DNA of 64,000 nt from an uncultured virus (IMG/VR IMGVR_UViG_3300021426_000082) (IMGVR_UViG_3300021426_000082), one strand, 5' to 3'. Shown: positions 2,563-62,442, counted from the first letter of the stretch. Translations and numbers: made by a program. The notes: a model not told the origin generated them from the sequence alone.

Positions 2563-3152
2563 GTAAGCTATACTGGCAACGAAAAAGAAAAGGACTATGT
2601 ACGCATTGCGGAAAACCGAATGACACAAATACTGTGTTATGTGAAGAGTGCCGTGTGTATGTAAGGGGACTGCAAAGGGAACGGACCGAATATAAACGCA
2701 GGATAGGTCAATGTATATATTGCAGCGAAAAAGCTATTGAGGGATCGTCCTGCTGTGAAAAGCACGAAGAATATTTCTGGAACAAGAACGCAAGCAGGAA
2801 ATATAGAAAATACCTTAAAACGCGGTATGACAGACTGAAAAGCCAGGGCATTTGCGTTACATGCGGGAAAAGAAAAGCTGACGCGGGTGTGAGGTGTGCT
2901 ACGTGTGCAGCAAAATATAAATCCTATCCAAAAGAGCGAATGAAAATGAAATATCAGGGCCGTGTGAATAATGGCCTTTGCCCAAGGTGCGGACAGGAAG
3001 CCCAGGGGGATATGAAAATATGTCCTGACTGCCGAAAAAAAGCAATGGAAAAATATTACAAACAGAAGGAACTGCGCAAACAGGGGGAAATAACGAATGG
3101 CAGGAAACAAGCAGTATATCCGTATGGTCAAAGAGTTCCGCAGACGGGTTGA
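2559..3152 (+). CDS. multi-Zn-finger repeat protein
   Basis: four GxCxxC...CxxC/H units separated by basic helices. Confidence 0.65.
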   Translation: MSKLYWQRKRKGLCTHCGKPNDTNTVLCEECRVYVRGLQRERTEYKRRIGQCIYCSEKAIEGSSCCEKHEEYFWNKNASRKYRKYLKTRYDRLKSQGICVTCGKRKADAGVRCATCAAKYKSYPKERMKMKYQGRVNNGLCPRCGQEAQGDMKICPDCRKKAMEKYYKQKELRKQGEITNGRKQAVYPYGQRVPQTG

Positions 3153-23613: not shown

Positions 23614-23627
23614 AATCAGTAATAGTT

Positions 23628-23747
23628 CAGTTGACTTGACCGCTGTAAGGTGATGGACATTCCACTCACCGGAGCTTTTCCGGAATTTGGAGTTTTATGG
23701 TTTACCGATTTCAGGAAGGCATCAAGAACGATGCAGAGAAGAACATA
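23628..23747 (+). ncRNA. orphan Cas12f-type tracr scaffold plus one 36-nt repeat and guide
   Basis: CAGTTG-ACTTGA-CCGCTG-TAA-GGTGA..TCACC scaffold as at 58602 and 60214; repeat 23692-23727 resembles 58692-58727. Confidence 0.75.
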
Positions 23748-23900
23748 AAAATTTATTGCCCGCATTGCAGGAAATACGGTCGCGACAAACTACTTTTCCA
23801 AGTCGATAAGACAACGACAGGGAGAGTGATTATAAAATGCCGTGGCTGTCGTAACCTTGTGACAATAGAACTGGTAAAAGGTGAGCCGAAAGAGCCGTGA
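23697..23900 (+). CDS. Com-like zinc-ribbon regulator
   Basis: IYCPHC...KLLF...IIKCRGCR; GGAG RBS; first gene of late region. Confidence 0.65.
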   Translation: MVYRFQEGIKNDAEKNIKIYCPHCRKYGRDKLLFQVDKTTTGRVIIKCRGCRNLVTIELVKGEPKEP

Positions 23901-23916
23901 AAGCGGCTCTTTTTTT
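23883..23916 (+). terminator. terminator with tandem GAGCC motif (copy 1)
   Basis: GAGCCgaaaGAGCCG-TGAAAG-CGGCTC-TTTTTTT. Confidence 0.7.
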
Positions 23917-23977
23917 GGATTTTAAGCAAGAATCTGGAGTTTTGCGAAAACGTGAAGCCATCAAAAGAGAGGGAAAC

Positions 23978-56226: not shown

Positions 56227-57050
56227 TGGAGTTAACAAACGACAATTATTACTCTATGGAGAGCAATATGTACTACTGCTCAGTCAGTCAGTACAAATCA
56301 TTCATAGGCACACCAAGCAATCCCGCCTGTGAAGCTGCGGCCATGGCAGACCTGAGAGGTGAGATAGAACATAAAGCAGTATCAACTGCATTGTTAGTCG
56401 GTTCTTATGTTGATGCGTATTATTCCGGTGAGTTTGATCAGTTCATTGACGAGCATCCTGAGATATTCAGAATGAACGGGACACTGAAATCAGCGTTCAA
56501 GCAGGCAAATACAATGATTGCCAGAAGTAAAAAAGATGCGCTTTTCCAGAGATATATGGAAGGCGACAAACAGCTTATTCTCACTGGTGACATTGAGGGT
56601 GTCCCGTTCAAAGTCAAGATAGACAGTACGGACCACAAGAGGATTACCGACTTAAAAACGGTCCGGAAAATCTCTGAGACGTTTTTTGTCAAGGATTCCG
56701 GTGAGAGAATCACGTTCATAGAAAAATGGAACTATGACCTGCAGGCCGCTATTTATCAGGAAATATACTTCCAAAACTACGGAAAGAGATTGCCGTTCTA
56801 TATATGCGCAGTCGATAAAAGCCGCAGTTCGATAGATGGTTCTTTCCACCCCAGGATTGCGGTCATACAGATACCGCAGTCAGCTATGGACGACAGGCTT
56901 GCAGAGGTCAGACATAATGTACGTCGCATAGAAATGTTAAAGACCGGAGAGATAGAGCCGATTGCCTGTGGTGTATGTGACTACTGCGCAGACACATTAC
57001 CGCTTACAAGGCCGATCAGCATTGATGAATTGTTAACGGAGGTGCAATGA
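56223..57050 (+). CDS. PD-(D/E)XK exonuclease (DUF3799/RecE-like)
   Basis: LT.DNYYS, SVSQYK, K.KID, DLKT, YDLQAAIYQ, CG.CDYC. Confidence 0.85.
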   Translation: MMELTNDNYYSMESNMYYCSVSQYKSFIGTPSNPACEAAAMADLRGEIEHKAVSTALLVGSYVDAYYSGEFDQFIDEHPEIFRMNGTLKSAFKQANTMIARSKKDALFQRYMEGDKQLILTGDIEGVPFKVKIDSTDHKRITDLKTVRKISETFFVKDSGERITFIEKWNYDLQAAIYQEIYFQNYGKRLPFYICAVDKSRSSIDGSFHPRIAVIQIPQSAMDDRLAEVRHNVRRIEMLKTGEIEPIACGVCDYCADTLPLTRPISIDELLTEVQ

Positions 57051-58591
57051 GACTTGTAAAGATTTCTGCATCATCGGTGCAGATTAAGTCAAACGACAAA
57101 GAGTTTGAGGGATTAAGGATCAATGACCTGATGAGGATTACAGATGGCACAGCAAACCTTGTGGTCATGGTCAGCAACATCACGTCAGCAGATACGGACG
57201 ATGACGAGATGTTTATCAGGGCGACAAAGATGCGCGTTGTAGACTGCGACATCATAGGCTCGATTACGGACGGTCATTTCCATACTGACATTAATACGTA
57301 TCCCACAACCGACGTAAGCATTAGCGGTATCACTCAGGACGAGTTCAGGAACATGCTCATGAAGTTTGAGAACAACGGATTCAAGCTGGGCGTGTATGCC
57401 GACTATGAAGTAGACGCTTATGTAAATGCGAACAAGTTGTTCCAGAGACACGCCTGCCTGCTTGGTAATACGGGTTCCGGTAAATCCGAAACGGTAGCAA
57501 AGATACTGCAGGAGATTTCCAAAAAGCGGTCAACGAATGTCCTGGTATTCGATATTCACGGTGAGTATTCGAACATTAGCTACGTCAAGAGCTATAAGGT
57601 AGGAACGGATGACTGTCCTATTCCCATCTGGATGTTCGGTTTTAATGGTATCGTATCCAATATCCTGCGCATCAAAGAAGAAAGCTCAACAGTGGTCATG
57701 ACTGCACTCAGGAAATGCTATTACCAGGTGTGTCCGGATGGTAAAGAAAACAAACCTATATGGTTCGACTACAAAGCCTTAATCAATGCCATGGTCAACC
57801 TCAACACCGAGGTTATAGGTACGGGCGACTTCTATAAGACAGGCGACAGAGCAGGTCAGGAAAAGACAAAGGCCGGAGAGTTCAACGGAAAGCTCGATAC
57901 AGTGATTGCAAAACTCAAAGACCGCTTAGAGGATTCCCGTTACAGGTTCCTTTTCAACGATCCTGGACAGGGGGCTTTACACACATTGTTCTCTATCCTG
58001 TTTGAAAAAGGTGGCGTAAAGAGTTTTGATTTTTCAGATGTTCCCCATGATGTAGCAGTCCCGATCATCGGAATTATCACAAAACTTGCCTATGACGGTC
58101 AGCGGACACAGAGAGATATTTGCCCCATGGTCATTTTCTGTGACGAGGCACATGTATATATCCCTGCATCCGATCAGTTATCATCCTCACAGCGACGCAT
58201 GACAGAGACGTTTGAAGAGATTGCAAAAGAAGGCCGTAAGTTCGGCGTGACACTTTTCCCGGCAACGCAGCGTCCTTCAGAGCTTAACAGAACAATCCTG
58301 GCTCAGTGCGGTAATTTTATTGTAATGAAACTGAACAACGAGAATGATAAGACCATCGTTAAAGGTATGTTACCCGAAGGTAATGTAGGCATCGTAGAAT
58401 CAACAACAATGTTCAGGCCGGGTGATTGTATCGTCATCGGTGATGCAAGTCCTATCCCTATCAAAGTGCATGTTGACCTCGCAGACGAAAGACCCACAAG
58501 CAGGACTATTGATTTCTGGTCAGAGTGGGATAGGGAAAGAGAACAGGCAGACGTGAATGACATTATAAGCAGCTATTTATCATCGTTTTGA
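57047..58591 (+). CDS. HerA-like ATPase (DUF87, with HAS-barrel-like N-terminus)
   Basis: RHACLLGNTGSGKS, FDIHGEY, CDEAH, IAKEGRKFG, TQRPSEL, QC.N. Confidence 0.85.
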   Translation: MRLVKISASSVQIKSNDKEFEGLRINDLMRITDGTANLVVMVSNITSADTDDDEMFIRATKMRVVDCDIIGSITDGHFHTDINTYPTTDVSISGITQDEFRNMLMKFENNGFKLGVYADYEVDAYVNANKLFQRHACLLGNTGSGKSETVAKILQEISKKRSTNVLVFDIHGEYSNISYVKSYKVGTDDCPIPIWMFGFNGIVSNILRIKEESSTVVMTALRKCYYQVCPDGKENKPIWFDYKALINAMVNLNTEVIGTGDFYKTGDRAGQEKTKAGEFNGKLDTVIAKLKDRLEDSRYRFLFNDPGQGALHTLFSILFEKGGVKSFDFSDVPHDVAVPIIGIITKLAYDGQRTQRDICPMVIFCDEAHVYIPASDQLSSSQRRMTETFEEIAKEGRKFGVTLFPATQRPSELNRTILAQCGNFIVMKLNNENDKTIVKGMLPEGNVGIVESTTMFRPGDCIVIGDASPIPIKVHVDLADERPTSRTIDFWSEWDREREQADVNDIISSYLSSF

Positions 58592-58601
58592 TAGATGTGC
58601 T

Positions 58602-58669
58602 CACCTGACTTGACAGGTGTAAGGTGAGGGAAGATTCCACTCACCAGAGCCTTCCGGAAGGCATCAAGG
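58602..58669 (+). ncRNA. natural single-guide scaffold (tracr fused to repeat half)
   Basis: CACCTG-ACTTGA-CAGGTG, GGTGAG/CTCACC, GCCTT-CCGG-AAGGC, ends ATCAAGG. Confidence 0.75.
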
Positions 58670-58764
58670 ATAACTGTACAGATTCTTTTTTGTTTTATGG
58701 CCTTCTGGTTTCGGTAAGGCATCAAGGAGGAAATAGCAAACTTGCTTTCGGGAAGGCATCAAGA
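58651..58764 (+). CRISPR. degenerate micro-array upstream of Cas12f-like gene
   Basis: three AAGGCATCAAG ends (58668, 58726, 58763); one full 36-nt repeat 58692-58727; spacers of 22 and ~15 nt. Confidence 0.65.
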
Positions 58765-58848
58765 TGGATATGTTTATGTATGGCATGGTTGTCTGATACA
58801 TAAAGGAGAGAGCAGGCACAAAAAAAGCAAAAGAAAAGAAAGGCACCA

Positions 58849-60201
58849 ATGGCAAAAGATAGTTATGTTATGACGCGCAAAATCCAGGTGATTCCGGTAG
58901 GAGATAAGGAGGATATAGACAGGGCATACAAGTACATTCGTGATGCACGATACGTCCAGAACAGAGCGTACAATCTCCTTATCTCAACGGTATATGCGGC
59001 GATCATATCAAGAAAGAGTAACGAAGAAATAAACACGATATACAAAAGGGGTTCCAGAAAGCCAAAAGAAAATGATCCCGAATACAGTCTTTATGACTAT
59101 GACACATATCATTTTCCGGTAGGGCTTCCGATAGCGTCGGGGCTTAGCCAGCGTGTTAAGAGCGATATTAAAAAAGCAAAGCAAAACGGATTGTTTAAGG
59201 GTAATTCGTCCCTGCCTAACAAGAGAAGAACATCGGCGTTAGAGCTGCATCCTGATTATGTTAGGGTGATGGCTGAGAACAAAAGGCCCAATGGGTTGTA
59301 TCACAAGTATGATTCTGATGACGAGTTCTACGAGGCGTTAAGGACTGGAACACCAGAAATATACTGGAAGTTCTGCAACGGAATAGAGTTCAAGATGGTC
59401 ATACGGAACCCAAGGAAAGACGCATGTATCCGGTCAGAACTCGAAAAGATATTCAAAGGCGAGTATGCGATTAACGGGTCGCACATTAACATCTCAGACA
59501 GCGACAACAAGATAATTCTTTTCCTGACATTCACTGTACCTAAATCAGACAGGCAGTTGCTTGAAGATGTGACAGTAGGTGTAGATGTAGGGATGGCGAT
59601 ACCTGCGGTATGTGCGCTTAATAGCAATCCTGGGCCGAGATTATTTACGGGAACATACATCGTAGACGGCAATACTCACAAAGGAACGTCAGAGCTATTA
59701 AGACAGCGGACTTCAATTCAGAATCAGCTTAGAAGGCATCAAAGCGGACTTAAATACAGTAGTGGTGGTCACGGCAGGGCAAAGAAGCTACGGTCGCTTG
59801 AAAAGCTGAAGGACAGGGAAAGGAATTTTGTAAACACCTATAACCACAGGATTTCAAAAGCGGTCGTTGATTTTGCGCTGAAACACAAAGCGAAATATAT
59901 CAACATCGAAGAATTAAAAGGATATGATGCTAATGATTTGATTCTTCGTAACTGGTCATACTACGAACTGCAGAACATGATCACTTACAAGGCAGAGCGT
60001 TACGGAATCACTGTCAGGAAAATAGAACCCGCCTATACTTCTCAGACGTGTTCATGTTGCGGAAACGTCAGCAAAGCACAGAGAAGGAGCCAGAGTGAAT
60101 TTGTCTGCATTAATCCTGATTGCGAGAACTACATGAAAGTGGTCAATGCGGATTACAATGCCGCCAGAAACATCGCAATGTCAACTAAATATGTAAAATA
60201 G
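58849..60201 (+). CDS. cas12f: Cas12f-like (TnpB-superfamily) compact RNA-guided nuclease
   Basis: RuvC D246 (VGVDVG), E354 (INIEEL), D435 (NADYNAARNI); GGHGRAKK, LRNWSYYELQ, YTSQTCSCCG; flanked by tracr-like scaffolds and repeats. Confidence 0.88.
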   Translation: MAKDSYVMTRKIQVIPVGDKEDIDRAYKYIRDARYVQNRAYNLLISTVYAAIISRKSNEEINTIYKRGSRKPKENDPEYSLYDYDTYHFPVGLPIASGLSQRVKSDIKKAKQNGLFKGNSSLPNKRRTSALELHPDYVRVMAENKRPNGLYHKYDSDDEFYEALRTGTPEIYWKFCNGIEFKMVIRNPRKDACIRSELEKIFKGEYAINGSHINISDSDNKIILFLTFTVPKSDRQLLEDVTVGVDVGMAIPAVCALNSNPGPRLFTGTYIVDGNTHKGTSELLRQRTSIQNQLRRHQSGLKYSSGGHGRAKKLRSLEKLKDRERNFVNTYNHRISKAVVDFALKHKAKYINIEELKGYDANDLILRNWSYYELQNMITYKAERYGITVRKIEPAYTSQTCSCCGNVSKAQRRSQSEFVCINPDCENYMKVVNADYNAARNIAMSTKYVK

Positions 60202-60213
60202 TCAGCGATGGCT

Positions 60214-60270
60214 CGGTAGACTTGACTGCCGTAAGGTGAGGTCAAACAGGCACTCACCAGAACCCTTGCA
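60214..60270 (+). ncRNA. tracrRNA-like scaffold with anti-repeat
   Basis: CGGTAG-ACTTGA-CTGCCG, GGTGAG/CTCACC; ACCCTTG complementary to repeat CAAGGGT. Confidence 0.75.
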
Positions 60271-60285
60271 AAGTTAATAATTGGC

Positions 60286-60443
60286 CCTTTGGAGGACTGT
60301 AGAACCACAAGGGTATCAAGGCTACAGTGTTGGACATAGAAAACATTGATGCCTTTGGAGGACTATTAAACCGCAGGGGTGTCAAGGGCAAACTTAGCAA
60401 ATGCTACCCTTTGGAGGACTGTAAAATCACAAGGGTATTAAGG
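60286..60443 (+). CRISPR. mini CRISPR array: three 36-nt repeats, spacers of 30 and 20 nt
   Basis: CCTTTGGAGGACTGTAGAACCACAAGGGTATCAAGG at 60286, variants at 60352 and 60408. Confidence 0.85.
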
Positions 60444-60467
60444 TCAAGGTAGAAAGGACTTAAAAAA

Positions 60468-60848
60468 ATGACCAAAAAGACTTTCGCAGGCACAAAAAAT
60501 GCAGGGGTGTCAAGGAAGGATTCAATCATAGTAGACATGCGCTATGCAAATTATGACCTTATTGACGGTCGGCCTGACGTGCATAGGCATCATGTATTCA
60601 TGGGGGCAAAACAGCGTGATTTAGCCGACGAAGATGGTTTGTGGATACCGCTTTCAGAACAGCACCATGAATACGGTTTAAGACCGGATACAGGCGTTAG
60701 ATGTGACGTGCATCATTGTAAGATATTCAGACAGCTTACTCAGATTATCGGTCAGTTAGCATGGGAACTCGACTATGTTGCCGATGATCAAAAGAAAAAA
60801 GAAGCAAGAGAGGCTTTCCGGAAAAGATACGGTCAGTCTATGCTTTAA
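60468..60848 (+). CDS. HNH-like (Ref-like) phage nuclease
   Basis: HRHHVF.G..R.L..EDGL..PL...HH. Confidence 0.55.
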   Translation: MTKKTFAGTKNAGVSRKDSIIVDMRYANYDLIDGRPDVHRHHVFMGAKQRDLADEDGLWIPLSEQHHEYGLRPDTGVRCDVHHCKIFRQLTQIIGQLAWELDYVADDQKKKEAREAFRKRYGQSML

Positions 60849-60893: not shown

Positions 60894-61367
60894 ATGGCGT
60901 GGGTAAAAGGAATCCCGCCGAAAATGCTGCATGACAAGCTCGGTATTTATCGCGAGGGCGGGTGGCACGCAGAGATGGACCGTTGCTGGGTTGACGGGAC
61001 CTATTGTGTATGCTCACGAATCATTAGAACACAATTCGGCAACGTGGAGCATGTAACGATCACAAAGGGCGGTGGTACGTATGACGGTTCCGGTGAGGTG
61101 ACTTGGGCGGAAAAGATGCGTATTAAGAATGAACTGTTCGGGGAGAACAGATTTGCTATTGAGGTTTTCCCGAAACAGAAGAACCTGGTTGATGTGTGCG
61201 ATGTCTATCACCTTTGGGTATTTGACAAAAAGGTAAATATGCCTTTTGGAATCGGCAAAAAAGAAATGGTCCATGCTATCAACCGCGGTTATAACATAAC
61301 GCCCGCTGAACTGGAAACGTTAAACAGCGCAATTAACAAAGGAGAGACTATTGGAAGTCTGGCGTGA
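60894..61367 (+). CDS. phage hypothetical protein
   Basis: TWAEKMRIKNELFGE...AIEVFP...LVD....HLW. Confidence 0.65.
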   Translation: MAWVKGIPPKMLHDKLGIYREGGWHAEMDRCWVDGTYCVCSRIIRTQFGNVEHVTITKGGGTYDGSGEVTWAEKMRIKNELFGENRFAIEVFPKQKNLVDVCDVYHLWVFDKKVNMPFGIGKKEMVHAINRGYNITPAELETLNSAINKGETIGSLA

Positions 61368-61896
61368 GGTTCCAGGTTATAACGGAAGGTATTTTGCAAG
61401 CAACAAGGGCCGGATTAAAAGCTATACCGGACACATACTTTCGATGATCAAAAGGTGCCGTGGTGAGAATGTAAGATATGTTGTCACGACAACCAAAAGT
61501 GACAACCGCAGGGGGGCGGCGAGTGTAGCCAGAATGGTATGGCTTGCTTTTAATGGTATTCCACCTCCGGGATACATGGTGGTGCATAAGAATGGTTTTC
61601 AACACGACAACAGGCTTTCAAACCTTATGTTGATGCCAAGAAAGTCACCGCCGCTGATACCACCTAACCAGAAACCAGTCATCAAAATATCAAAATCTGG
61701 AGAGATATTAGAGCATTACACATCTGCAAAAGAGGCGGGTGACGCTAACTACTTTGCAGATACGACTATATCAAGGAGGGCGTTAGGGCAGGTCAAATAT
61801 CCTTTGGATGGCGGGATAGACTTTTGCTATGACACGAACGAAAGCTACAAAATGGCCCTTAAAAGGCTGGGACTTAAACCGAAGAACCTGTATTGA
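61351..61896 (+). CDS. NUMOD4-HNH endonuclease
   Basis: EVW..VPGY.GRY..SN.GR, HKNG..DN...NL. Confidence 0.8.
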   Translation: MEVWREVPGYNGRYFASNKGRIKSYTGHILSMIKRCRGENVRYVVTTTKSDNRRGAASVARMVWLAFNGIPPPGYMVVHKNGFQHDNRLSNLMLMPRKSPPLIPPNQKPVIKISKSGEILEHYTSAKEAGDANYFADTTISRRALGQVKYPLDGGIDFCYDTNESYKMALKRLGLKPKNLY

Positions 61897-61920
61897 CGAA
61901 AGGGACAAACGCTTTTGGGA

Positions 61921-62442
61921 ATGAAGGAACAGACACCTGAAATATGGAAGGACATTCCTGGTTATGGTGGTAAATATCAGGCATCTATACATGGCAATAT
62001 CCGAAGGGTATATGAAAGCGGAAAGACAAGGCAATTAACACCTTGGCATCGTAAGATGAGAGGAAGTCCCCGGCTTGTAGTCAAGCTGACCCACGAAGGA
62101 AAGAGCAGGGAGGCCGTGGTCTTAGGTCTTGTGGCCCTGACGTTCATAGGGCCTCGTCCAGAGGGATACGTGCCATATCACATAAACGGTATGCAGAGCG
62201 ATAACAGCGTCAGGAACATTGCGTATATATCCAGAAAAGAACTTGGACGACTGACCGGACCGGGAGCACGCAGAAAGCCAGTGGCTAAGATAGACGCTAC
62301 AGGAAATGTGGTCGAATACTATTCGTCTGCAAGGGAAGCGGGCAGAAAGAATCATATGTCATATCAGGCCATCTTGGACAGGTGCAACGGAAAAATAAAG
62401 AACCCCACGGCTCTTGATGGACATAACTATTTATGGGATTGA
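61921..62442 (+). CDS. NUMOD4-HNH endonuclease
   Basis: EIWKDIPGY.GKY, HING..SDN...N, NUMOD1-like tail. Confidence 0.8.
   Translation: MKEQTPEIWKDIPGYGGKYQASIHGNIRRVYESGKTRQLTPWHRKMRGSPRLVVKLTHEGKSREAVVLGLVALTFIGPRPEGYVPYHINGMQSDNSVRNIAYISRKELGRLTGPGARRKPVAKIDATGNVVEYYSSAREAGRKNHMSYQAILDRCNGKIKNPTALDGHNYLWD

What the first reader, a model, noticed from the sequence alone, without database searches (positions are those of the whole stretch)
58602..58790. Natural single-guide RNA followed by a degenerate micro-array
Seen: the anti-repeat is joined directly to the 3' half-repeat through a 4-nt loop (GAGCCTT-CCGG-AAGGCATCAAGG, 58647-58669), giving a scaffold of only ~68 nt, followed by guide ATAACTGTACAGATTCTTTTTT. 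A full 36-nt repeat (58692-58727), a ~15-nt spacer AGGAAATAGCAAACT and a self-hairpinning half-repeat (GCTTTCGGGAAGGCATCAAG) follow. Inference: fused and split guide formats coexist for one enzyme. A very short scaffold would be useful for engineering, and the short spacers could direct binding or repression instead of cutting.
Basis: partly seen in the sequence, partly recalled or inferred. Interest (0 to 1): 0.85.

Follow-up and report, generated by a model that had tools for sequence, protein, structure and literature searches.

The report
Fused guide RNA of phage Cas12f
Just upstream of a miniature CRISPR nuclease gene in a gut phage lies a second copy of its guide-RNA scaffold, already joined by nature to a guide in the way engineers build single-guide RNAs; whether it is active is untested.

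Summary
Every motif sits at the stated coordinates. A covariance model built only from other phages finds the scaffold at 58596-58661 (43.8 bits, E 4e-8).

The 450-aa gene just downstream (58849-60201) encodes a type V-F (former V-U3) Cas12f with its catalytic residues intact. The window holds three scaffold copies:
- the normal tracrRNA plus array after the gene (60208 onward);
- this upstream one;
- a third, previously unnoticed, at 23622.

In the upstream copy the anti-repeat is a 14-nt palindrome that runs straight into a repeat's 3' end and a 22-nt spacer. This makes a cis-fused, omegaRNA-like single guide. It looks like a roughly 46-nt deletion of a split module such as the one at 23622.

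Relatives commonly carry 2-4 tracr-plus-array modules on both sides of one gene. At least one other lineage (L036/L038) has the same fused-first-unit layout.

A near-identical fused module occurs in an independent bovine-gut run, and the array parts differ between strains.

No transcript, target or activity could be shown. No self-target supports the repression idea, and the "68-nt" 5' boundary is uncertain. I rate it a new variant of a known kind, of moderate interest.

The parts
57047..58591 (+). HerA-like ATPase gene. Its stop codon lies 4-10 nt before the scaffold, so the module has no intergenic promoter region of its own.
   Evidence: Pfam DUF87/HerA_C; PADLOC HerA 9.2e-115; no sigma-70-like site on the + strand near it.
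58596..58661 (+). tracrRNA-type scaffold, upstream copy (module U).
   Evidence: Covariance model R1: 43.8 bits, E 4e-8, full length, no mispairs.
58602..58619 (+). Hairpin 1 (CACCTG / loop ACTTGA / CAGGTG).
   Evidence: Four of its six pairs differ on both sides from the downstream copy (CGGTAG/CTGCCG), yet all still pair.
58623..58645 (+). Hairpin 2 (GGTGAGGG .. CCACTCACC with a bulged A), the most conserved element of the family.
   Evidence: (99.6% of cells paired in the family).
58649..58662 (+). Anti-repeat fused to a repeat 3' arm: the perfect 14-nt palindrome GCCTTCCGGAAGGC (5-bp stem, CCGG loop).
   Evidence: Comparison with the split module at 23674-23726.
58663..58669 (+). Repeat tail ATCAAGG, single-stranded and adjacent to the guide.
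   Evidence: The same tail ends the repeats at 58721-58727 and 60315-60321.
58670..58691 (+). 22-nt spacer (guide of the fused unit).
   Evidence: No second site in the window and none in viral contigs.
58692..58727 (+). Full 36-nt repeat; it folds into a hairpin of its own.
   Evidence: Close to the repeat at 23692-23726; GTTTTATGG occurs only at these two places.
58728..58742 (+). 15-nt spacer.
   Evidence: No other site at up to 2 mismatches in the window.
58743..58763 (+). Truncated repeat. It is 18 of 20 identical to the fused hairpin plus tail and lacks the repeat's 5' part.
58849..60201 (+). cas12f gene (450 aa), the only one in the window.
   Evidence: PF07282 4.8e-21. PADLOC Cas12u3 6.6e-101 and Cas12f 1.7e-98. 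PDB profile hits 8hr5 9.4e-116 and 9nzp 4.2e-101. D246, E354, D435 and the Cys residues are invariant in 24 homologues. tblastn finds a single copy.
60208..60274 (+). tracrRNA scaffold, downstream copy (module D).
   Evidence: R1: 57.8 bits, E 1.8e-11.
60286..60443 (+). Downstream array: three degenerate 36-nt repeats with 30- and 20-nt spacers. A further partial repeat lies at 60502-60515, inside the next ORF.
23622..23726 (+). Third module (M3), in split format: scaffold 23622-23686, then leader, then one repeat at 23692-23726.
   Evidence: R1: 29.0 bits, E 1.6e-4, two mispaired positions. Sequence.

Best explanation
**What it is.** The stretch is one of three guide-RNA modules of a phage-borne miniature type V-F (former V-U3) CRISPR-Cas12f system.

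**Shown.**
- Positions 58596-58648 are a tracrRNA-type scaffold of the family that normally follows such genes: two covarying hairpins and the CACTCACCAGA junction.
- Its anti-repeat continues in cis, through a CCGG loop, into the last 12 nt of a repeat and a 22-nt spacer.
- One full repeat, a 15-nt spacer and a truncated repeat follow.

**Inferred origin.** The fusion arose by a deletion of about 46 nt between the anti-repeat and the first repeat of a split module like the one at 23622. Both carry ..GGAA at the junction.

**Inferred function.** The RNA is made by read-through from the HerA operon. The Cas12f encoded 180 nt downstream binds it as it binds its tracrRNA:crRNA pair, with the 5-bp hairpin standing in for the repeat:anti-repeat duplex. 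The 22-nt spacer then guides cleavage of an unknown target, probably a competing phage. The trailing repeat units are decaying.
For: **Identity of the scaffold and the nuclease.**
- The scaffold matches a model built without the window: E 4e-8, no mispair.
- The family helices covary. 92.6% of cells pair against 73.8% in shuffles, and 168 cells carry double changes against 52.6, with 0 of 500 shuffles reaching either value.
- Hairpin 1 differs from the downstream copy at 4 pairs on both sides yet stays paired.
- The fold gives three hairpins and a free tail.
- The nuclease is a Cas12f with an intact D-E-D triad.

**The layout fits the family.**
- I gave the model 100 of my 240 loci. It gave 213 matches at E<=1e-3, all on the gene strand, with 2-4 modules per locus both upstream and downstream of the gene.
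- No second cas12f gene was seen in the up to 1.5 kb of flank held upstream of the gene in these loci.
- L036 and L038 have the same fused first unit, followed by 30-nt spacers that differ between them and then by full repeats. Sister loci L040 and L046 are split.
- More distant relatives (L144/145, L175/193) have omegaRNA-like fused ends and no array.

**Persistence and variation.**
- A 1373-nt contig from an independent run spans 58391-59765 with 25 substitutions and two 1-nt gaps, so it keeps the fused junction.
- In two other runs the spacer/repeat part (58673-58769) is not alignable, although the flanks are.
Against: - No RNA evidence of any kind was obtained, and no promoter-like site lies before the module.
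- The spacers (22 and 15 nt) are shorter than the family's usual 29-32 nt.
- The copy lacks the small hairpin that abuts hairpin 1 in the window's other two modules and in about half of relatives' cells.
- The stem replacing the duplex has only 5 bp, against about 11 bp in split relatives.
- No protospacer was found for any spacer.
- Clearly fused units are rare in the family. A crude script put 13 of 191 regex-defined modules in the short-loop class. By eye only 5 of those 13 carry a repeat-type tail, and the script missed this module and L036.
- One candidate group of fused units (L004-L006) turned out to be followed by conserved leader, not by a spacer.
Confidence: 0.6

Rival explanations
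1. Non-functional scar. The module is the remnant of a once normal upstream tracrRNA-plus-array. Deletions fused the anti-repeat to a repeat, shortened the spacers and truncated the last repeat. It is carried along but no longer loads the nuclease.
For: - The spacers are short and irregular, and the last repeat is truncated.
- The 5' small hairpin is missing in register.
- The downstream array is also degenerate, and the third module has two mispaired helix positions.
- Similar deletion products that cannot work exist in relatives. In L022 the fusion removes half of hairpin 2, and L089 has a fused unit with almost no spacer.
Against: - Both helices of this copy are perfectly paired despite many differences from the other two copies.
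- The fused junction keeps the geometry hairpin, then 7-nt tail, then spacer exactly.
- The junction persists in an independent sample.
- L036/L038 show the same layout with full-length, differing spacers.
Confidence: 0.3
2. Regulatory or decoy RNA. The fused unit and the 15-nt spacer direct binding without cutting, as in auto-repression by tracr-L for Cas9. Alternatively they soak up the nuclease until needed.
For: - The module sits directly before the nuclease gene.
- The 15-nt spacer is close in length to the 14-16-nt guides reported for nuclease-dead Cas12f homologues (passages of PMC13472631).
- Phage-encoded single guides that silence a cas9 promoter are reported (abstract of 10.64898/2026.06.01.729453).
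Against: - Neither spacer has a second site in the 64-kb window, including the 85 nt between the module and the gene.
- The nuclease has intact catalytic residues.
- The host genome is not available, so host targets could not be examined.
Confidence: 0.08
3. Not a guide RNA at all. On this reading it is a set of DNA repeats bound by a phage regulator, or a chance resemblance.
For: Three copies of a hairpin-plus-heptamer within 120 nt before a gene could be operator sites.
Against: - The covariance model gives E 4e-8, with compensatory pairs, on the gene strand only.
- The same motif set is found after the gene and at 23622 in the expected tracrRNA-repeat order.
Confidence: 0.02

Closest known systems
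Type V-F1 (former V-U3) CRISPR-Cas12f, e.g. the chain of PDB 8hr5 (recalled as CnCas12f1) and RhCas12f/OsCas12f (PMC13186708)
   Same: - The effector is homologous over its full length (profile E 9.4e-116 and 4.2e-101; PADLOC Cas12u3/Cas12f).
- The guide sits at the 3' end.
- A tracrRNA encoded beside the gene pairs with the 3' part of the repeat.
   Different: - The guide RNAs described for these enzymes have four or five stems and 129-156 nt in the newly described orthologues (passages and section 8 of PMC13186708). Here the conserved core is two hairpins plus the anti-repeat, about 70-85 nt.
- Here one gene is served by three scaffold copies.
- One of those copies is fused in cis by nature, not by an engineered tetraloop.
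TnpB omegaRNA (IS200/IS605)
   Same: - One RNA carries both scaffold and 3' guide.
- Distant relatives of this protein in Bacillaceae genomes (L175, L193) carry such fused ends, which also finish in ..ATCAAG.
- NCBIfam guided_TnpB matches at 1.3e-47.
   Different: - The module does not overlap the 3' end of the nuclease gene.
- It is not at a transposon end.
- It is followed by repeats and spacers.
- No TnpA was seen among the 34 ORFs scanned.
Chimeric single guide RNAs of nuclease-dead Cas12f-sigmaE systems (Nature 2026, PMC13472631; passages read)
   Same: - A Cas12f-lineage protein uses a natural single guide.
- That guide is thought to have collapsed from a dual crRNA/tracrRNA.
- Vestigial CRISPR arrays remain in the same locus.
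   Different: - Those proteins have lost the RuvC site, act with a sigma factor in Bacteroidota chromosomes and use 14-16-nt guides.
- Here the nuclease residues are intact, the element is a phage, and split modules are still present.
Natural single guides for Cas9: tracr-L (Workman 2021, recalled; listed as reference 19 in PMC13472631) and phage vsgRNAs / rAcrIIA1 (2026 preprints; abstract, listing)
   Same: A compact natural fusion of tracrRNA-type and repeat-type parts, in two cases encoded by phages.
   Different: - Those act on a host Cas9 as repressors or anti-CRISPRs.
- Here the phage encodes its own nuclease, and no promoter target was found.
TranC, transposon-CRISPR intermediates said to use both CRISPR RNA and the ancestral single RNA (recalled; only the PDB name LaTranC and a listing were seen)
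   Same: The idea that one enzyme can use both split and single guide formats.
   Different: - The family is different: the profile E-value to LaTranC is only 1.7e-5.
- Here the single format looks secondarily derived from the split one.

Membership tests
Type V-F (V-U3) CRISPR-Cas12f system | Small TnpB-like effector with a C-terminal RuvC (D-E-D) and a zinc-ribbon/TNB domain | tested here: met
   - 450 aa; PF07282.
- Cas12u3 6.6e-101 and Cas12f 1.7e-98.
- PDB Cas12f chains down to 9.4e-116.
- D246, E354, D435, C401, C404 and C425 are invariant among 24 homologues.
Type V-F (V-U3) CRISPR-Cas12f system | tracrRNA gene beside the effector, whose anti-repeat pairs with the repeat | tested here: met
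   - Downstream module: scaffold E 1.8e-11, and a 7-nt anti-repeat complementary to the repeats' 3' arm.
- Module at 23622 likewise.
- In the upstream module the pairing is intramolecular.
Type V-F (V-U3) CRISPR-Cas12f system | CRISPR array of regular repeats and unique spacers | tested here: inconclusive
   - Downstream: three degenerate 36-nt repeats with 30- and 20-nt spacers.
- Upstream: one full and two partial repeats with 22- and 15-nt spacers.
- The array parts differ between strains.
Type V-F (V-U3) CRISPR-Cas12f system | RNA-guided, PAM-dependent cleavage of double-stranded DNA | not testable with these tools
   No protospacer was found from which a PAM could be read.
TnpB-omegaRNA (IS200/IS605 element) | Single RNA with scaffold and 3' guide | tested here: met
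   Fused unit 58596-58691. This is met in form only; no transcript was shown.
TnpB-omegaRNA (IS200/IS605 element) | The RNA overlaps the 3' end of tnpB and ends at the transposon's right end, with the guide being the flanking DNA; TnpA or IS ends are present | tested here: not met
   - The module lies upstream of the gene, directly after the herA stop codon, and is followed by repeats.
- No Y1 transposase was found among the 34 ORFs scanned with Pfam.
Natural single-guide RNA (tracr-L / vsgRNA / dCas12f gRNA kind) | Scaffold and repeat-derived part contiguous, with a hairpin replacing the intermolecular duplex | tested here: met
   Palindrome 58649-58662, then the tail, then the spacer.
Natural single-guide RNA (tracr-L / vsgRNA / dCas12f gRNA kind) | A discrete transcript bound by the effector | not testable with these tools
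   No run on record as RNA holds the stretch. This says nothing either way.
Natural single-guide RNA (tracr-L / vsgRNA / dCas12f gRNA kind) | A guide with a partial match to a promoter that it regulates | tested here: not met
   No second site for either spacer in the window. The host genome is not held.
Virus-borne mini-CRISPR arrays (recalled: Medvedeva 2019) | Short arrays in a virus genome whose spacers match related viruses | tested here: inconclusive
   - The phage context is clear: terminase, portal, lysins, repressor.
- No spacer match was found in viral contigs or in the phage records.

The most novel reading that the evidence does not exclude
This gut-phage Cas12f family runs several orthogonal tracrRNA-array modules from one nuclease gene. 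Recombination between the anti-repeat and the self-complementary repeat repeatedly collapses a module into a hard-wired, omegaRNA-like single guide that still works with an active nuclease. On this reading the 58596-58669 unit would be a natural minimal single-guide scaffold of about 74 nt for a 450-aa Cas12f. It would also be a living example of the dual-to-single guide reversal so far described only for nuclease-dead relatives.
Probability: 0.35. Interest if true: 0.7.

Novelty: new variant of a known kind. Interest (0 to 1): 0.5.

Why it matters
**Evolution.** If the fused unit is active, the split of the transposon's single RNA into tracrRNA and crRNA can run backwards in a nuclease-active, phage-borne Cas12f. 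Both formats could then serve one enzyme in one genome. That would make the proposed TnpB to Cas12f to single-guide trajectory directly testable within a single phage.

**Engineering.** It would offer a naturally trimmed guide scaffold, roughly half the length of published Cas12f guides, for a 450-aa nuclease.

**Family architecture.** Several tracrRNA-plus-mini-array modules on both sides of one gene, all on the gene strand, is a finding in its own right for how phages arm a single small nuclease. I found no paper describing this layout or a cis-fused guide for a nuclease-active phage Cas12f in four searches. Those searches were not designed to be exhaustive.

Tried and rejected
**Databases that gave nothing.**
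- Rfam: nothing meaningful around the module or around 23622.
- No whole genome is held for the window.
- The single-protein scan of viral contigs found no relative.
- blastn of 58400-60600 against phage records gave no match.
- No relative closer than 53% identity could be fetched as DNA. The 67% homologue P0003 and the identical cluster P0002 were out of reach.

**RNA evidence.**
- No RNA holder is listed.
- The one RNA run laid (X21, same sample as the likely source) gave no contig on the stretch.

**Target searches, all negative.**
- 16-nt seeds of nine candidate guides within the window.
- The 15-nt and 16-nt spacers at up to 3 mismatches in the window.
- 20/21-nt spacer cores in viral contigs.
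- A degenerate scaffold pattern in viral contigs.
- The 30-nt downstream spacer against phage records: chance hits only, E about 0.9.
- The spacers after the fused units of L038 and L036 match only their own contigs.

**Ideas considered and dropped.**
- Pseudoknot: the alternative CTCACC (58601-58606) pairing with GGTGAG is specific to this copy's hairpin-1 sequence and is not used in the minimum-energy fold.
- L004-L006 as fused units: what follows is a conserved leader with indels, not a spacer.
- A second cas12f gene as owner of the upstream modules in relatives: none within 1.5 kb.

**Methods that proved unreliable or limited.**
- My two hairpin-counting scripts are crude. The first was swamped by AT-rich false stems. 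The second missed the window's own module and L036.
- The extra 5' hairpin test used 43 of the 57 model sequences plus the three window copies. The 14 dropped belong mostly to a subclade with a differently placed hairpin 1. Fixed-column counting undercounts shifted registers.

**Side check.** tblastn of the small protein P0122 against phage records gave no match.

Full report
**Observation**

The region 58592-58848 lies between a HerA-like ATPase gene (57047-58591) and a 450-aa gene (58849-60201), both on the + strand.
- hairpin 1: 58602-58619
- hairpin 2: 58623-58645
- palindrome GCCTTCCGGAAGGC: 58649-58662
- tail ATCAAGG: 58663-58669
- 22-nt spacer: 58670-58691
- 36-nt repeat: 58692-58727
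- 15-nt spacer: 58728-58742
- truncated repeat: 58743-58763

The repeat finder groups the three hairpin-plus-tail copies.

**The gene**

The protein P0001 is a Cas12f.
- It carries the Cas12f1-like TNB domain (4.8e-21).
- It matches the PADLOC models Cas12u3 (6.6e-101) and Cas12f (1.7e-98).
- It matches NCBIfam guided_TnpB (1.3e-47).
- A profile of 24 homologues hits solved Cas12f chains: 8hr5 at 9.4e-116, 9nzp at 4.2e-101, and 9nzo/9nzr at about 3e-90. LaTranC scores only 1.7e-5.
- D246, E354, D435 and the zinc-ribbon cysteines are invariant in that alignment, so the nuclease is probably active.
- It is the only such gene in the window (tblastn).

The window is a phage. It encodes a terminase-like protein, a portal, CW_7/GH25 lysins, an S24 repressor, RecT, a PDDEXK nuclease, an integrase, methylases and HNH endonucleases. 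No cas1, cas2, cas4 or tnpA appeared among the 34 ORFs scanned.

**The family and its RNA**

The protein search gave 1530 hits at E<=1e-3 among 5286 candidates. Apart from an identical cluster and one 67% homologue, all are about 50% identical or less. DNA was obtained for 240 loci:
- Viral contigs: 93 of 441 pattern matches confirmed, 80 kept;
- Metagenome contigs: 368 of 599 confirmed, 80 kept;
- Genome contigs: 200 of 600 confirmed, 80 kept.

None exceeds 53% identity. The genome-contig records name gut and rumen Firmicutes among others.

Downstream of the gene these loci share a conserved layout:
1. a hairpin;
2. the motif (A/T)A(A/G)GTGAGG, a loop, then CACTCACCA(A/G)A;
3. an anti-repeat of about 11 nt;
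4. a short leader;
5. an array of 36-37-nt repeats with 29-32-nt spacers.

This is a tracrRNA between the gene and the array. The window's own downstream region (60208-60443) has exactly this layout.

I took 117 distinct scaffold instances with short loops, reduced them to 58 at under 88% similarity, and dropped one spurious hit. I aligned the remaining 57 without the window's copies. Both helices covary. 92.6% of cells pair against 73.8% in shuffles, and 168 cells carry double changes against 52.6, with 0 of 500 shuffles reaching either value. Slid controls give at most 49% pairing.

**Three scaffold copies in the window**

The model was searched over the whole window with filters off. It gave five matches at E<=10, three of them significant and all on the + strand:

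| Position | Bits | E-value | Comment |
|---|---|---|---|
| 60208-60274 | 57.8 | 1.8e-11 | downstream module D |
| 58596-58661 | 43.8 | 4e-8 | the finding (module U); no mispair |
| 23622-23686 | 29.0 | 1.6e-4 | previously unnoticed copy (M3); two mispaired positions |

The copy at 23622 lies between a dUTPase region and the portal gene. It is in split format: scaffold, anti-repeat, leader TTTGGA, then a repeat at 23692-23726 that closely resembles 58692-58727. GTTTTATGG occurs only at these two places, and the exact 11-mer AAGGCATCAAG only at 23716, 58658, 58716 and 58753.

**How the fusion arose**

In the split copy the scaffold ends ..TTCCGGAA|TTTGGAG.. and the repeat ends ..CAGGAA|GGCATCAAG. 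The finding reads ..TTCCGGAA|GGCATCAAGG. This is what a deletion of about 46 nt at the shared GGAA would leave (inference).

The resulting 14-nt palindrome folds as a 5-bp stem with a CCGG loop. The tail stays single-stranded before the spacer.

The truncated last repeat is 18 of 20 identical to this hairpin plus tail.

Hairpin 1 of this copy differs from the downstream copy at four of six pairs on both sides, yet pairs perfectly. That argues the scaffold has been kept under constraint, or was acquired from another working module.

**Family context for an upstream, fused module**

I gave the model 100 of the 240 loci: L001-L080 and 20 genome loci. It found 213 matches at E<=1e-3, every one on the gene strand. 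There are typically 2-4 per locus, both 150-600 nt upstream and downstream of the gene. No second cas12f gene was seen in the up to 1.5 kb of flank held upstream of the gene in these loci.

In one clade (L012-L031) two upstream modules and one downstream module each have their own anti-repeat/repeat pair. Their spacers differ between sister phages. An upstream module is therefore normal for this family.

Fused first units also recur.
- L036 and L038 read scaffold, anti-repeat, repeat 3' arm, tail, then a 30-nt spacer that differs between the two, then full repeats. Their sister loci L040 and L046 have the split form with a leader.
- L140 and L144/L145 have fused hairpins with a repeat-type tail. 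No array is seen in the sequence held, which is only 258 nt for L140.
- The Bacillaceae relatives L175 and L193 have omegaRNA-like ends.

Other fusions are clearly dead. In L022 the fusion removes half of hairpin 2, and L089 has almost no spacer. The L004-L006 case is followed by conserved leader, not by a spacer.

A crude count put 13 of 191 regex-defined modules in the short-loop class. Five of those carry a repeat-type tail by eye, and the script missed the window's module and L036. Fused units are rare but recurrent.

**Other samples**

Twenty DNA runs from ten studies, mostly bovine gut, hold part of 57800-60700. I laid four of the 22 listed runs.
- In X2 one 1373-nt contig spans 58391-59765 with 25 substitutions and two single-base gaps (58686 and 58820). 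The fused junction and the micro-array therefore exist in an independent sample.
- In X6 and X7 the flanks align, but 58673-58769 has no cover. Loose ends show other sequence ending in the same repeat tail.
- The downstream array (60322-60418) is uncovered in all three, with other spacers in the loose ends.

Both array regions thus vary between strains, as CRISPR arrays do. Contigs cannot show expression.

**What remains open**

- **Transcription.** No promoter-like site precedes the module, so transcription would have to come from the herA operon.
- **5' boundary.** Most modules have a further small hairpin abutting hairpin 1. It is present in the window's downstream copy (60200-60213) and, with one mismatch, at 23614-23627, but not in register in the finding. 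Fixed-register pairing is 50% across the 46 sequences tested. The "68-nt" boundary is therefore uncertain.
- **Guide length of known relatives.** Published Cas12f guides of related enzymes have four or five stems, and those of the newly described orthologues measure 129-156 nt (PMC13186708, passages and section 8).
- **Targets.** None was found for any spacer, in the window or in the collections searched. The repression idea has no support, and no PAM can be inferred.

**Comparison with what is known**

- Natural single guides are established for TnpB by definition.
- They are established for nuclease-dead Cas12f-sigmaE systems. There the authors propose a collapse from dual to single guide and note vestigial arrays in the same loci (PMC13472631, passages).
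- They are established for Cas9 in tracr-L (recalled) and in phage vsgRNAs (abstract; a second preprint seen in a listing only).
- TranC enzymes are said to use both formats (recalled).

What is different here is the combination: a nuclease-active, phage-borne V-F enzyme, several scaffold copies for one gene, and a fused and a split module of the same repeat lineage in one genome.

My four literature searches turned up no description of this. They were not exhaustive, and supplements were not consulted.

Earlier notes of this scan describe similar upstream fused modules and duplicated tracr-array modules in other genomes. I treat those notes as leads, not as evidence.

**Verdict**

The stretch is best read as a guide module of a phage Cas12f whose first unit has collapsed into a natural single guide. 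I put it at about 60% that the module still works and about 30% that it is a scar. It is a new variant of a known kind, of moderate interest.

Noticed in passing
window 23614-23967: A third Cas12f scaffold plus one repeat lies far from the gene, between a dUTPase region and the portal gene. The repeat's first bases supply the GGAG/ATG start of a 67-aa zinc-ribbon ORF (23697-23900, P0122). A homologue (P0124) differs in the first 17 residues but is nearly identical afterwards. A strong terminator-like hairpin follows the ORF, and a possible second degenerate repeat lies at 23939-23967.
   Followed up: partly
L001-L080 and 20 genome loci: In this family one cas12f gene is usually flanked by 2-4 separate tracrRNA-plus-mini-array modules, each with its own anti-repeat/repeat pair. 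All 213 model matches lie on the gene strand.
   Followed up: partly
window 58773-58804: A perfect 9-nt inverted repeat (TTTATGTAT / ATACATAAA, 14 nt apart) sits between the micro-array and the cas12f ribosome-binding site. It could be an operator or an RNA hairpin.
   Followed up: no
window 58840-58850: The bases around the cas12f start codon (AAGGCACCAAT) resemble the repeat tail at 2 mismatches. In relatives the last degenerate repeat also runs into the gene's ribosome-binding site.
   Followed up: no
window 60468-60848 and 60502-60515: The 126-aa ORF after the downstream array has no family match in Pfam or PADLOC. It begins inside the array's trailing part and contains a partial repeat.
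   Followed up: no
window 61351-62442: Two tandem NUMOD4 + HNH_3 homing-endonuclease-like genes follow the Cas12f locus, and a DNA methylase gene follows them.
   Followed up: no
L022 2910-3012; L012-L014, L018, L029 about 2910-2990: These are deletion variants of the downstream module. One joins the 5' arm of hairpin 2 directly to a repeat, and others join the junction motif to a repeat's loop without an anti-repeat. They show that these modules recombine internally.
   Followed up: partly
L010 about 2850-3150: The sequence after this relative's gene looks like a cluster of tRNA genes rather than a tracrRNA. This was judged by eye only.
   Followed up: no
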